NCBI GenBank assembly: GCA_003427395.1
Contig: BFEA01000016.1
Span: forward strand, 4,661,242-4,725,241
DNA length: 64,000 nucleotides
Direction: 5' to 3'
Source of the DNA: Chara braunii
Taxonomy: Eukaryota; Plantae; Charophyceae
Below are positions 32,573 through 54,862 of the stretch, one piece after another. The stretch's first letter is position 1. Each line of letters starts with the position of its first letter. Both the position numbers and the translations under genes were made by a program. The notes below the pieces were generated by a model. The model saw only the letters and a list, made by a program, of their open reading frames with translations, was not told where the DNA came from and ran no database searches.

Positions 32573-33170
32573 TGTCGGGGCAGAAACCCTGGCAAGGGTA
32601 TCTGCCCGGTATTTTTAAATGTCGGACGATGTCCGACTTAGTGAATGGCTATTCGGGCTTCATAACTTGATGAGGTAGGATTATCTGCCAAAGGTTTATT
32701 CAACCCTGACCTAGGACCGGGAAGCAAAAACTTTTTAAAACCCTAGTCCGGACGTCCGCGGCATCCGAAAGTAGTGGCAGTAACCGAACGTGCTTCGCTT
32801 TGTTGAGGCCGCATGGGAACGCTAAATTTAGCCCTATTCTACCTATAATAAGGTCGCGTGGCTGTTAAGCCGCGCGATTCAGGGCCTAAGCGGGCCAAAA
32901 AGGGGTCGCTGCGGCAAGGTGGACCGCGGCGTGAAGAAATGGCTTAGGGTCCATAGGGCTTTTGCGCCAAGCACCGGGGGCGAAGGCGTCGGGGCCGGCT
33001 GGGTACGGCAGCCATTGAGGCTGTCGGCTGCCGACCTCGCTTGCCGACCTCACCGGCCAGCCACGGCGACAAGCCGGCTTAGCAGGCTCAGCCTGCTAGG
33101 CGCTGGGTAGGGGCCTGTTGGGCACCGAAGCCCTTCATATAGAAGGGCCGCTCCTTTTTGGATGTGAAAA

Positions 33171-33257
33171 GGAGCTAGCCCAGTAGGTACCGTCGCCAGA
33201 TTACCACCCCGCAGACATGGGGATCGAACGTGACCAGCGCACTACCGGGCTAGCTCC
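33171..33257 (+). ncRNA. tRNA-like Pol III-type hairpin inside LTR D
   Basis: GGAGCTAGCCCAGTAG...GGGATCGAAC...CTACCGGGCTAGCTCC then TTTT. Homologue of 12065-12152. Confidence 0.6.
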
Positions 33258-33346
33258 TTTTGGAGCAGCCCATGACCTGACGATGGGTGCGGCCGATTTT
33301 TGGCCGTGCGATCTTCGTGATCGCGCGGCTGAAATCAGCCGCGCCG

Positions 33347-33416
33347 AGATAGCATGGCCCTGTGTAAGGATGACATGCATAGATTGAGAAATAGCCCGGG
33401 TTTTTTTTTTTTTTTT
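33347..33416 (+). ncRNA. U6 snRNA 3'-half fragment with oligo(T) end inside LTR D
   Basis: AGATAGCATGGCCCTGTGTAAGGATGACATGCATAGATTGAGAAATAGCCCGGGTTTT aligns to plant U6 AGATTAGCATGGCCCCTGCGCAAGGATGACACGCATAAATCGAGAAATGGTCCAAATTTT. Confidence 0.88.
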
Positions 33417-33785
33417 GGAAAAAAAAAAACAAAGAAAAAAAAAGGAGAAAGGGAGAAAGACTTACCTATCCCGCATCTGGACGCGTAAGCGCCCAGATAC
33501 GGGCATTATGGAGATGGCAGCATCACGAGGTAAGTCGTGTCCTTCCCCCCATCTGGCGCGTTTTGAAGTGACTATGAGCTTAAAGCCCCAGTGAGGTGAC
33601 AGGCGCCCGTTAGGAACAGGCAGCCACGTTTAGGTAGGTTTTCTTTTTCCTTTTTTTGTTTTCATTTCTCCTTTTGTTAGATTTTGCTTCGATTTTTTTA
33701 TTTTGTTTTTAGATTTAGTTTAGATTTTGGTTTTTCTCATTTTTCTACCCGTTCGTTTCGAACAAACGGGCACTTGTGACCAGCC

Positions 33786-33840
33786 AGACTGTTTAGTCGG
33801 GGTCCCACCGACTCATCAGGGGGCTTTGCCCCAACAGCCC
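33786..33840 (-). ncRNA. Type III hammerhead ribozyme, core mutated (G12>U)
   Basis: GGGCTGTT-GGGG caaag CCCC-CTGATGA-GTCGG tgggacc CCGAC-TAAA-CAGTCT. Confidence 0.8.
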
Positions 33841-50843: not shown

Positions 50844-51467
50844 CCTTTGGTTGACCCAGTCAATCATGCAATACTGCCTTTCTCCCCTCCTTCCCCCAGA
50901 TGCAATCCCACAATCTGCTTTCAGTCAAACAAATAAACCTGAAACCGATATTGCACATACATTCCTTTACTTAGTCTAGTTTATGTCATGAAAGTCAAAC
51001 TGAAAGTCAAAGTAGAGGGGCATGCAGTATACTCAGTCAAAGTATAAAAAGGGATATAGATAGGGGCCATAACTGGGTTTATAGAGGAAACAATGGTTAC
51101 CTTTCAGTTCCCTGCCTCCATAACTCCTCCTGAGTTCCGGCAGAGCTCCCGCAATCGGTGGGCTGACAACCCACAGAGTCTTGTTGCGGTCCTACGGGTT
51201 GCAATCCTGCCTGCCGCCTTCCTCTCAGATCAGGACTAGACCTAGAGTAAGAAAGGCAGAAGATAAGGCGTTTTAGACGCTCGAGATACAGGCGGGGACA
51301 AACTCTACTCATAGGAGAGGGCCTTGATACCCTCACTCGCCTGAGGGCCCCACAATGGTAGCCATAGCGTGCAACAACCTGGTCAACTGAAGTTAAACCA
51401 CCAACCGTTGACCTCCTTGACGGTCCTCCAAATCGCTGCAGTAGCCTTGTTACAGAAGCTAATCACC

Positions 51468-51474
51468 TTTTATA
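51468..51474 (-). promoter_or_regulatory. Putative TATA box of LTR C
   Basis: TATAAAA on minus, upstream of a donor-like AAG|GTAACC (~51100) and the GCTGCC repeats, the same order as in the other LTRs. Confidence 0.35.
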
Positions 51475-52260
51475 AGTCGTTGTTCTCTTTCCTCTAACCG
51501 ACAGCCCTGCTCTTGCAGCCTTAAAGAGCCATGTTCGAGTAAGGCACACCCCTAGATGTGAATAGAACACATCAATTCCCACCGAAAATATGCGTACACA
51601 GCAGCCGGGTGCAACAACCCGTAAAAGCACGGCCTCCAGATGACACAGACTGGGTTTCCTCGCCGGAAAAGAGCTGTTCATTTGTGCGCATAGTTAGAAA
51701 TATACAATCCTTGCCTCCCACCAACAACCCGACTGTTGCTGCTATAAGCAAAAGGAGCTTGAGTGACAACTCCCCGTTGACTCGAGCCTAACTTCAACAT
51801 CTCGTATCTATGCTCACTAATGTAGCAGCATCCCTTCGTACTGTAGCAGCCAGCAATGGCGCGTAAAACTTACAACAACGGCATCAGTCTGCTTGCTTGT
51901 TGTAAACAGCAATCAGACTTTCGTTTCCGGTACCCGGTCGACGTAGCTTCAGCCGCAGACTAGACTGTTAATCCTGGCCATGTCTGCCAATCACTCTACC
52001 AACCAAAAGCGGTCATGCACCTGACTGCAATTCCGTCCAAGTGCATGCGAAAACAAAGCGAGCAGTCATATACTTACCAACCCATGAGGGCGGGTATGTA
52101 TTGCAAGCCCCGCTCTACCTAGTTGTTCTCCAGGTAAGCCTGCGCTCCTGGGCAGGCGAGTATATATTGTCCTGCCCCTCCCCCCTGCTGTCTCAGCAAG
52201 TCGATCCAATGGGCAACTCTTCAGCCTGCGGGTAAGTCTCCAACACTCTGCAACTCACGC

Positions 52261-52291
<31 letters not shown>

Positions 52292-54862
52292 CCTGACAGA
52301 CACCTTAGCCAAGCACACTCACGACGAATAAGTATACCCGCTCAGGCCTTCGTCGGGATAAAGCCCCTGTCACTAAATACTACAAAGCGGTTATAAGATC
52401 GAACACCACTGAAGCAGCTATCACGGCCGATATATCGACCACCACGGTGACGGGCGCGCACTCGGAGGAGAAACAACGCGCCACTTATCAGAAGGTGTGG
52501 AAAGGCAACGTACCTTTCGCTGGAACACGAAAACATACAACGGTTAGCTCGCTTCTCGTGCGGCTTCTACCCCTCATCGAATATACGGAATGAGGATGAA
52601 TCTTCCGCTAAACCGCGGCAATATTCATCCACTCCCTCTCCTTTTAACACAACGCAGATCCTTATGCCTGCATCTCTGAAACCACCTACTGACCTTCTAA
52701 TCTGACTCCCTTTTCGGATTCGCCCAGCCTAAGAATCCCTATCTACATCTACTCCCCTTCTCTTCTCGTCTCTCACCAAGATGCAAACGGCGCATGACAA
52801 TCTCTCCTCCATATCCGTCGTTTCCACGCACTGCTTCTCCTTGCTAATTTTCTCTTCCTAAGTCTTACCCCAAAACTAACCTTTCCATCAGCATCGCCCT
52901 AACCAAATATCCCAGTTTAACATCTTGTCTTGCTCGCATCCATTGAGGATCAAGCGAGATTCGGACTTTTCACCCCAGTCTTCTTCCCTCTCCACCATTG
53001 CTTCGTGAAAGTTTTCCCTTACTAACCTCCTAGTCTAATCACCTAGCACTAAAACTAACCCCATAATCTAACTCGCCCATACCGAAAACCCCAATCTCGA
53101 CCTTTGATTCGCCTGATTCTGTCGGGAATCGGACAAGAACGGTCTTTCCTTGCTCTGCCATAGCTATCGGGTCGACATCTCCACACGGCCCTTTTCTTAC
53201 TAACTCGACTTCTTCTAAATTCTTTTAATTCTGACGCGAGATCCAGGGTCGCCCACCCCGAAACCCCCTAGTTAGCCCCTTCTCCTGCTTGGATCCGACG
53301 AGGGACGACGAAGCTACCATTACACTCTCCCGCCATACTCATTTTCCCCCTCTGCTTCGCCATTCCAGACTTCAAGCGCACCTGGCACAAATTCGCGGCA
53401 GGTTCATCCTTTCTCTTCCCCTTGCCTTCGTTCACGCTCTCCCTCTTGCTTTCACTCCGGCCAGTTCAGTCAGCGCCAAGCTGCGTGCCAGCCAGGACAC
53501 TGTCACAGCACCACCCACCGATCTGCGTTATCTTGAGGAACTGCCACAGCACCACCCGCTGATCTGCGCTATCTTGAGGAAGCCCCGAACGGAGCCAGCT
53601 ATTAGACCGTCCGACTAGACTCCGCCCCTATACCCAAGTCCGATGGACAGTTCGCGCAGCAAGGCCAATGGCGCCCCCCCCACATCGCTCCCCGGATTCT
53701 CTTTCTTCTAACCTTTTTGCCCCCAACACAGTCTATCATCCCTTTCGTGCTTCCAAGCGGCATGCCCACGCCCAGATCTTCACAGTCGGCCACCTACTGT
53801 TACACCACTGTGGTTTTCCCTTGGTGCCCCCTGGCCAATTCACCCCACCGCGCCTGGGTACAATCCTTGTCTGTCGGGCCCCAGCGGGCATACCCACAAT
53901 CAACAAGCGGCGGGTAGCGGACCGTGCGCTCGCAGTGACCCCTGCCAGCCTTTGGCTGCAGCCCCACAGACTCGCTCAGAATATTCCGCTACTCCCTTTC
54001 CACTCTAGACTATGGACTCTCTCCGCATGGGAAACTAGGGGAGCTACGACCACGGACCCCACCACACTTTTGTGCGTTGACCTCCCCGATCCGAACATAG
54101 GTCATATACACTTAACATTGTCGGCCCTTTTTGCCTCAAGTGACATTACAAACTCAACCCCTGACCGCGCCGTGATAGTCATTAAATCCGGCGTTGCGTT
54201 CAGGTCAACGGCACGCCGGAGCATAAGAAGAAATAACCAAAAATACGACGCTAAAAAGAATTATCTAGAAATTGCCGCCACCGATTGGGCGCTGCGGACA
54301 GCAAAATCAAGGGGGATAGCCCTGCCGGGCCCTCGACCCCTCGGTCCCCTTCACACTACTCTGATATTCCCACGCTGTCACCGCTCAATCTCGATCCCTG
54401 AATCTCTTTGACGAAAGTCCGACGCCGTAACCGCTAGTGCTAGGTACCAGGCTGGGTCTAGCCTTGTTGGACACCTAAATAAATTAATATTGCGCGGCGC
54501 GCAGGTCTACCGAAACATTTACGAAAGTCACACTGTTGTTGATGCCGTCCTCCGCACGTACGCACAAGTTACAGGCAAGCATTCCAAGCACGAGACATAA
54601 TCTTATTAATCATAATTTAACCAAAAACAAAAATCTGGTCGACGACCAACGCCGACTTTCACAATCATAAAAGGGGGAATAGATCACGCTCGCCTCAAAT
54701 CTGCGCGCCCACACACTCTCTACTCTAGTCAACCACCCTGTCAAACGTCAACCACAGACTCAGCCGCGCCCTGCCCGATATACTTAGACTTCAAACCGAA
54801 CTTATTTCCTGTCACTTGCAAACAACAGGACGGATACCCTTGTAAGGGTATTCGCACCGACA

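What the first reader, a model, noticed from the sequence alone, without database searches (positions are those of the whole stretch)
32573..54862. Giant modular LTRs acting as carriers of structured RNAs and orphan ORFs (candidate undescribed system)
Seen: four related LTR subfamilies share termini (TGTCGG..GAA.ACCCT..CAAGGGTAT and CCGATGCGCTCGACA) and a conserved 3' block. They are 4.7 kb (D), ~6.5 kb (B, reconstructed) and ~7.1 kb net (C) long, with different modules: tRNA-like plus U6 cassette (B, D), hammerhead pair (D), seven-hairpin array (C), ORF cargo (B). Known: Cassandra LTRs carry 5S RNA and plant retrozyme LTRs carry type III hammerheads, but both are small non-autonomous elements. 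Inference: an autonomous Gypsy lineage uses its LTR as a platform for RNA mimics, ribozymes and accessory proteins, which solo LTRs would then leave across the genome.
Basis: partly seen in the sequence, partly recalled or inferred. Interest (0 to 1): 0.88.

Follow-up and report, generated by a model that had tools for sequence, protein, structure and literature searches.

The report
Giant LTRs carrying small-RNA gene cassette
A family of jumping genes in a stonewort-type alga has very long end repeats (4.7 to 7.1 kb), and two diverged versions keep, at the same place, the promoter boxes, hairpin and stop signal of a likely small-RNA gene plus a reworked copy of the splicing RNA U6, which would make them retrotransposons with their own small RNAs; the claimed extra protein genes are not supported.

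Summary
The observation largely holds. D (32573-37289, 4,717 bp) and C (54862-46814, 7,145 bp net) are solo LTRs with 4-bp NCGN-type target duplications. B belongs to a decayed gag-pol Ty3/Gypsy element whose closest proteins are from Chara braunii. The modules differ in strength. Strongest: B and D share in U3 an A box, B box, terminal stem and T-run (49 of 54 columns identical, spacers 42 of 89), followed by a U6-derived piece that keeps the U4-pairing core (26 of 30 to Rfam in each) and has lost ACAGAGA. It is not a tRNA. DNA runs show it in many copies. The antisense type III hammerhead pair is real, but its core belongs to a separate, far more abundant repeat, sits in a low-copy part of D, and one core is mutated. 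C's seven hairpins covary, but C is one copy. The ORF cargo lies in both LTRs of B but shows no homologue, fold or coding signal. Best reading: a Phygy-like Gypsy family whose U3 likely carries an inherited Pol III small-RNA unit, as foamy viruses do, plus sublineage captures. Expression and function are untested.

The parts
32573..37289 (+). LTR D, solo LTR of 4,717 bp inserted in a LINE; 4-bp target duplication CCGA/CCGG (one mismatch)
33135..33261 (+). D: TATA-like site, then A box (33176), B-box variant (33221-33229), terminal stem and T4; predicted Pol III hairpin RNA of about 93 nt
   Evidence: (z -7.5); depth
33309..33416 (+). D: U6-derived sequence; 5' UUCG hairpin, U4-pairing core and T-run kept, ACAGAGA box lost
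   Evidence: 32.9 bits; gathering 44
33924..33978 (-). D: type III hammerhead 1, antisense to the LTR, core intact, GUU cleavage triplet
   Evidence: (46.5 bits)
33786..33840 (-). D: type III hammerhead 2, G12 position is U, likely inactive; stem I differs from hammerhead 1 but pairs
   Evidence: (45.5 bits)
33778..33994 (-). D: 14-bp perfect inverted repeat (33778-33791 / 33981-33994) closing the hammerhead pair; predicted blocker switch
34649..34660 (+). D: Pol II TATA-like box with the same context in B (10253) and F (963); marks the inferred U3/R border
34942..35124 (+). D: 54-bp tandem repeat; its core motif is also repeated in B, F and C
36977..37289 (+). D: conserved 3' block shared by all subfamilies
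46814..54862 (-). LTR C, solo LTR, 8,049 bp gross and 7,145 bp net; perfect 4-bp target duplication CCGC; inserted in the 3' block of LTR A
50110..50850 (-). C: seven hairpins with a near-constant 20-nt loop and different, self-pairing stems
46888..47795 (.). TTAA-flanked element with 17-bp inverted ends nested in C (not part of the LTR; holds an N gap)
46586..46813 (-). 3' end of LTR A (the rest lies at 54863 to about 56020); right flank ACGT
7795..12757 (-). 3' LTR of element B (N gap inside, broken at an inversion junction)
12055..12190 (-). B: A-box/B-box hairpin unit with T6, orthologous to that of D
11927..12030 (-). B: U6-derived piece; U4-pairing core kept, ACAGAGA box lost, A-rich tail instead of a T-run
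12758..20393 (-). Internal domain of B: PBS, gag-like ORF, protease, RT, RNase H, integrase (Gypsy order), broken by stops and frameshifts
20394..21856 (-). Remnant of the 5' LTR of B, with the ORF-like cargo
3955..7790 (+). Third B-type LTR piece; ORF-like cargo at 5569-6495
1..3885 (+). LTR F, a further subfamily, cut by the window start
61380..61965 (-). Hammerhead-bearing repeat units outside any LTR end; example of the probable donor family
   Evidence: loose ends

Best explanation
These are long terminal repeats of one Ty3/Gypsy family that makes 4-bp NCGN-type target duplications, and the U3 region of two subfamilies (B, D) carries an inherited, constrained A-box/B-box hairpin unit that is likely transcribed by RNA polymerase III into a ~93-nt RNA, followed by a U6-derived piece that likely cannot splice but is predicted to still pair with U4. 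Shown: anatomy, shared position, block-wise conservation, many variant copies of the D cassette. Inferred: the pieces entered U3 by reverse-transcriptase template switching or nested retroposition and were copied to both LTRs at each cycle; TFIIIC binds the boxes and Pol III stops at the T-run (T6 in B; T4 in D, where read-through would add the U6-like part up to its T-run). Least certain (about 0.3): the RNA serves the element in trans as a small-RNA precursor or decoy, as foamy-virus U3 cassettes do. The hammerhead pair is a later capture from an abundant type III hammerhead repeat into a D sublineage, tolerated because it is antisense to the genomic RNA and predicted to cut antisense transcripts once. 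C's hairpins are likely repeated protein-binding sites in the leader RNA. The ORF cargo is likely non-coding.
For: Termini, sizes, target duplications; Phygy is listed as 4 bp NCGN in 100% of 186 elements. Gypsy domains; 104 of 564 candidates hit the integrase, all named Chara braunii. B versus D: A-box arm 20/22, B box 11/12, 3' arm plus T-run 18/20 identical, against 15/29, 6/13, 21/47 in the spacers (Fisher p 9e-8, borders set after inspection). Of 4 loose A/B-box matches on both strands of the window, only these 2 have a T4 run behind. Fold z -7.5 (D) and -2.2 (B). U6 core: 26 of 30 letters match the Rfam consensus in each copy, with no difference shared (counted); the cassette bin has summed contig depth 8,217 and 8,714, like the TATA bins (7,104-13,764), while contigs unique to this locus have depth 9-14; 82-83 contigs cover 33318; a 256-nt variant contig spans 33056-33323. 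U3 windows with z of -3 or lower: D 8 of 21, B 5 of 7, F 3 of 9, against 0 of 25 (D R-U5), 0 of 25 (gag-pol), 1 of 19 (LINE). Precedent for Pol III cassettes in LTRs of foamy viruses and for U6 packaging and template-switch capture in retroviruses.
Against: No transcript of the cassette was shown: the two RNA runs are oligo-dT libraries, their profile follows DNA copy number, and no start or end pile-up was found. All Rfam matches are below gathering. Only two cassette copies were read in full; the stem changes between them are one wobble and one broken pair, none compensatory. B's U6 piece has no T-run and its 3' ISL side is changed, so B and D do not predict the same RNA. D's three substitutions in the U6 core are C-to-T, as in decay. 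C has no cassette and 0 of 33 structured windows in its 5' part, so the cassette is not family-wide. Summed contig depth is not a copy number (tool text). B's 5' LTR lacks U3, so the cassette could not be checked in both LTRs of one element.
Confidence: 0.55

Rival explanations
1. The A/B boxes act in cis: TFIIIC bound in U3 keeps the LTR open or shields the Pol II promoter 1.4 kb downstream, as in Helenus/Cassandra-type promoters or tRNA-gene barriers; any RNA is a by-product and the U6 piece is a folded signal in the 3' end of the genomic RNA (packaging or stability).
For: In Helenus, conservation centres on boxes A and B and no functional RNA is implied. The whole U3 is hairpin-rich in the sense of the genomic RNA. 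U6 is packaged by retroviruses.
Against: The 3' arm and T-run are conserved as well as the boxes (18 of 20), which a promoter alone does not need. A terminator right behind the B box rules out Pol III transcription of the whole element.
Confidence: 0.25
2. Neutral passengers: a SINE-like piece and a U6 retrocopy inserted once into an ancestral LTR (or were refreshed by template switching) and hitch-hike; the hammerheads and C's array are nested debris.
For: U6 retrocopies with A-rich tails are common by-products, and a few are linked to LTR elements. The hammerhead core is a very abundant separate repeat: bin depth 328,987 against 167-467 in the flanking bins, with loose ends that match the 61.4-62.0 kb context. 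The window is full of nested insertions.
Against: Passengers should decay like the spacers (45-52% identity); boxes and arms are at 90-92% and both U6 cores stay 26/30 to U6. C's stems pair with their own partners better than in all but 4 of 5,040 permutations. Contigs join the LTR hairpin at 33770 directly to a single hammerhead in several variants (short side 23-27 nt).
Confidence: 0.15
3. One reading: one system in which every subfamily uses the LTR for RNA mimics, ribozymes and accessory proteins.
For: Each of B, C and D has a distinct module; the cargo lies in both LTRs of B (94-95% identity) behind a splice-acceptor-like site and recurs before gag in another gene model.
Against: Cargo: 0 hits in 1.84 billion representatives, 0 Pfam hits, pLDDT 36, variable columns by codon position 17/10/7 and 6/4/5, pN/pS 0.81, and stop-free frames of 113 codons arise in 228 of 300 simulated regions. 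One hammerhead is mutated at G12.
Confidence: 0.1

Closest known systems
Foamy-virus LTR Pol III miRNA cassettes (Kincaid et al. 2014, PMC3993851; passages read)
   Same: A/B-box promoter, stem-loop and T-run terminator inside the LTR of an autonomous retroelement.
   Different: Here a Gypsy retrotransposon of an alga; no small RNA shown; followed by a U6-derived piece.
Helenus, Ajax, Cassandra (TRIMp3; Kojima 2024, PMC10886601; parts 1, 2 and 4 of 6 and passages read)
   Same: Small-RNA-derived Pol III boxes inside the LTR, no functional tRNA fold.
   Different: TRIMp3 are non-autonomous, 311-1,263 bp in all, and the promoter drives the element. Here LTRs are 4.7-6.5 kb, gag-pol is present and a terminator follows the B box. 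The paper has no occurrence of 'snRNA'; it notes that other Repbase LTRs hold tRNA-like parts but keeps only those under 1 kb.
Plant LTR retrozymes (Cervera et al. 2016, PMC4918200; passages read)
   Same: Type III hammerhead in an LTR, 4-bp target duplication, link to Gypsy.
   Different: Retrozyme LTRs are 300-400 bp with one ribozyme each, and cleavage releases a 600-1,000-nt RNA with PBS and PPT. Here two antisense copies lie 138 nt apart in one giant LTR and one core is mutated.
Phygy clade of non-chromoviral Ty3/Gypsy (Neumann et al. 2019, PMC6317226; passages and supplementary file 3 read)
   Same: 4-bp NCGN target duplication; Gypsy domain order.
   Different: Phygy elements are 7.7-10 kb in all with mainly tRNA-Trp PBS; B would be about 20 kb and its PBS looks like tRNA-Asp (assignment recalled). 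No tree was built.
Ogre/Tat giant LTRs (Arkhipova and Yushenova 2019, PMC6431247; passages read)
   Same: LTRs of 1.9-6.5 kb, tandem repeats in non-coding parts.
   Different: 5-bp target duplication and tRNA-Arg PBS; extra ORFs are internal. C at 7.1 kb would be longer, but it is one copy.
U6 retropseudogenes and chimeras (Doucet et al. 2015, PMC4476161; passages read)
   Same: U6 copies with A-rich tails; a few snRNA copies linked to LTR elements.
   Different: Those are one-off insertions; here the piece is at a fixed place in two LTR subfamilies and both lack the ACAGAGA box.

Membership tests
Ty3/Gypsy LTR retrotransposon | PR-RT-RH-IN order between TG...CA LTRs with a PBS | tested here: met
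   (element B; frames broken)
Phygy clade | 4-bp NCGN target duplication | tested here: met
   C CCGC on both sides; D CCGA/CCGG; A right flank ACGT; F right flank GTGT fits only after CpG decay
Phygy clade | Short element (7.7-10 kb), mainly tRNA-Trp PBS | tested here: not met
   LTRs of 4.7-7.1 kb alone; PBS read as tRNA-Asp from recall
Phygy clade | Placement in RT/RH/IN trees with reference elements | not tested
   searches returned only Chara proteins, so no reference sequences were in hand
Helenus / TRIMp3 | A and B boxes inside the LTR without a functional tRNA | tested here: met
Helenus / TRIMp3 | Non-autonomous and about 1.3 kb or shorter | tested here: not met
LTR retrozyme | Type III hammerhead in the LTR | tested here: met
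   D only, below gathering score
LTR retrozyme | 300-400-bp LTRs, one ribozyme each, non-coding interior | tested here: not met
LTR retrozyme | Self-cleavage and circular RNA | not testable with these tools
   no start or end pile-ups in oligo-dT runs, which are not suited to show them
U6 snRNA | ACAGAGA box | tested here: not met
   lost in both B and D
U6 snRNA | AGC triad and U4-pairing core | tested here: met
   26 of 30 letters in each copy; the pairing role of this stretch is recalled
tRNA gene | Cloverleaf fold | tested here: not met
Foamy-virus-type Pol III cassette | Pol III-dependent small RNA from the LTR | not testable with these tools
   sequence hallmarks present; no small-RNA data
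Protein-coding accessory ORF | Homologues, fold or purifying selection | tested here: not met
   three close copies give the selection test little power

The most novel reading that the evidence does not exclude
An autonomous algal Gypsy lineage encodes its own small RNAs in U3: a Pol III hairpin and a splicing-dead U6 mimic that holds U4 or U6-binding proteins and so tilts host splicing or silencing toward the element, with a folding-switched antisense hammerhead that cuts incoming antisense RNA; hundreds of solo LTRs would spread these units through the genome.
Probability: 0.2. Interest if true: 0.88.

Novelty: new variant of a known kind. Interest (0 to 1): 0.6.

Why it matters
Pol III small-RNA units in LTRs are described for retroviruses and, as bare promoters, for tiny non-autonomous elements. 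In ten full-text searches I found no report of one in a coding plant-lineage Gypsy LTR, nor of a U6-derived piece kept across LTR subfamilies; the library lacks most subscription papers and Repbase was not searched. If expressed, these RNAs would show that retrotransposons, like complex viruses, can carry accessory RNAs, and would offer a testable reason why some LTRs grow to several kilobases.

Tried and rejected
No genome is held for the window, so copies could not be collected. Rfam at gathering: 0 matches; the many microRNA matches at 56.8-57.6 kb come from GA-repeat hairpins. The array in C has no useful Rfam match, none of its 12 windows reaches z -3, and its outer stems do not tell the strand. 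My first pairing count used a fixed register that missed hairpins 2 and 7; it was redone with one-base slack. Run search: no RNA holder listed. Read depth for C and for the 5' part of B was not obtained, so their copy number is open. Metagenome scans: cassette pattern 0 hits; terminus pattern 3 hits, all matches of 20-23 bases only in 64-66% GC contigs, taken as chance. Cargo searches; 54 of the 73 listed ORFs of 75 aa or more were sent to Pfam, 0 hits; single-sequence model pLDDT 36, so no fold search. Penelope-like Chlamys-2_cBra as hammerhead donor: its ribozyme is reported, but the one supplement held has no sequence match and file S2 was not seen; such ribozymes are usually type I, so this is unresolved. 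A trypanosome-type divergent tRNA promoter for U6 was considered (listing only) and dropped because the boxes are on the same strand as the U6 piece. An independent SINE was not favoured because a T-run separates head and U6 body and cassette depth matches other LTR bins.
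Full report
Setting. No genome is held. The reverse transcriptase and integrase of element B hit only proteins named Chara braunii (6 of 561 and 104 of 564 candidates), so the window is from that alga or a close relative. It is a nest of retroelements.

Anatomy. The 5' terminus occurs three times and the exact 3' 15-mer six times. 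D spans 32573-37289 inside a LINE, flanked by CCGA/CCGG. C spans 54862-46814 on the minus strand, flanked by CCGC, inside the 3' block of a related LTR (A); without a nested TTAA element it is 7,145 bp. No internal terminus was found in either, so each reads as one LTR. B has a PBS and a broken gag-PR-RT-RH-IN domain; its LTR sums to about 6.5 kb only across a gap and an inversion. The 3' blocks are 76-94% identical. The 4-bp NCGN target is the hallmark listed for Phygy, but size and PBS differ and no tree was built. A shared TATA context at 34649 (D), 10253 (B) and 963 (F) puts the cassette and hammerheads in U3 (inferred). A gene model from another scaffold (CBR_g41100) splices an integrase to D's 54-bp repeat, and CBR_g51520 splices B's cargo to gag, so both LTR types go with coding elements elsewhere.

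A/B-box cassette. It is not a tRNA. B and D agree at 20/22 columns in the A-box arm, 11/12 in the B box and 18/20 in the 3' arm with T-run, but at 15/29, 6/13 and 21/47 in between, and 52% in the 360 bp upstream; the borders were drawn after inspection. The unit folds into a long hairpin (z -7.5 in D, -2.2 in B). Only these two of four loose A/B matches in the window have a T-run behind (the pattern was written knowing the cassette). In two DNA runs the cassette bin has the same order of summed depth as the TATA bins and several hundred times that of locus-specific contigs; this is a rough guide, not a copy number. The changes between the two stems are not compensatory.

U6-derived piece. It follows 50 nt later in both. 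Rfam aligns D over the whole model (32.9 bits) and B over the 3' half (19.6 bits), below the gathering score of 44. Each matches 26 of 30 letters of the core from the AGC triad on, with different changes, and each lacks ACAGAGA. That this core pairs with U4 and that ACAGAGA binds the 5' splice site is recalled knowledge. D ends in a T-run, B in an A-rich tail. Retention next to spacers that no longer align suggests constraint, or refreshing from packaged U6.

Hammerheads. Two type III folds lie antisense in D, 138 nt apart. The second has U at G12. The core is part of another repeat: its bin depth is 328,987 against 167-467 in the bins at 33478-33803 and 34130-34455, and loose ends match the units at 61.4-62.0 kb. 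Contigs with 0 other letters cover the flanks, so this part of D is rare. Still, 10 contigs in one run and 14 in the other (of the joints shown; 447 more not shown) join the LTR hairpin at 33770 straight to one hammerhead, with only 23-27 nt on the short side, which suggests a small sublineage with a single copy. A 14-bp inverted repeat closes the pair. Folding predicts stem III of hammerhead 1 at 0.15 when the transcript ends after it and 0.71-0.74 in the full domain, where hammerhead 2 is blocked; the second copy could thus act as an anti-blocker. This is a prediction.

C array. Seven hairpins share a loop at 91% mean identity while arms share 41%. Own arms pair at 7.7 of 10 against 5.5 for foreign arms; 4 of 5,040 permutations do as well. 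In the ungapped alignment covariation is reached by 6 of 500 shuffles but the count of doubly changed pairs by 169 of 500. A U-G pair in 7 of 7 inner stems favours the LTR-sense RNA. If the TATA-like site at 51474 is the promoter, the array is in the leader. C lacks the cassette, its middle 6.5 kb has almost no match in the window, and unrecognised nested DNA cannot be excluded. Its copy number is open.

ORF cargo. The DNA is in both LTRs of B and a third piece and starts behind an acceptor-like site. No homologue, family or fold was found, substitutions do not favour third positions, and such frame lengths are common in simulations. Three close copies give little power, so coding is unsupported rather than excluded.

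General structure. Windows with fold z of -3 or lower make up 16 of 37 in U3 of D, B and F against 1 of 69 in D's R-U5, gag-pol and the LINE, 0 of 33 in the 5' part of C and 0 of 40 in the neighbouring region 42540-46580 (25 shuffles each). RNA reads in two oligo-dT runs follow DNA abundance and show no ends.

Verdict. The inherited Pol III-type hairpin with a U6-derived piece in a coding Gypsy LTR is the real finding; it works like foamy-virus cassettes on sequence hallmarks, and fails membership of Helenus, retrozymes, tRNA and U6. I found no description in ten searches. The broader 'platform' is partly a patchwork of sublineage captures. New variant of a known kind; interest 0.6. Earlier scan notes held nothing on this genome or sequence.

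Noticed in passing
window 61380-61965 (-) and bin 33804-33966: A type III hammerhead repeat with very high summed DNA depth (about 40 times the LTR cassette bin) and the highest RNA depth on the stretch laid (mean about 520 and 1,240 in two runs). Its parent element is unknown; it may be a large retrozyme-like family of Chara.
   Followed up: partly
window 46888-47795 and 56536-57735: Two TTAA-flanked elements with related inverted ends, both nested in LTRs of this family; the second holds GA/TC-repeat hairpins that draw microRNA matches.
   Followed up: partly
window 33459-33536 (+): Behind D's U6 piece a 9-bp stem pairs a U1-5'-end-like stretch with a consensus 5' splice site (likeness recalled, seen in the sequence only).
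   Followed up: no
window 33605, 33747, 34085 (+): A small hairpin motif is repeated in D's U3 around the hammerheads.
   Followed up: partly
window 90-150 (+) and 10950-11050 (-): F and B share further strong hairpins in U3 (z -7.7 in B).
   Followed up: no
window 30437-42536 (+): Decayed LINE (endonuclease and RT, poly-A tail) interrupted by D at a near-palindromic site.
   Followed up: partly
window 3955-10061: B-type LTR pieces face each other as a 2.3-kb inverted pair at 91% identity, with the junction four bases behind an LTR end; rearrangement or misassembly.
   Followed up: partly
window 42537-46585: AT-rich 4-kb stretch with no BLAST match elsewhere in the window and no Pfam hit in the ORFs sent.
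   Followed up: partly
window 29738-30475: 365-bp tandem duplication at 92% identity just before the LINE.
   Followed up: no
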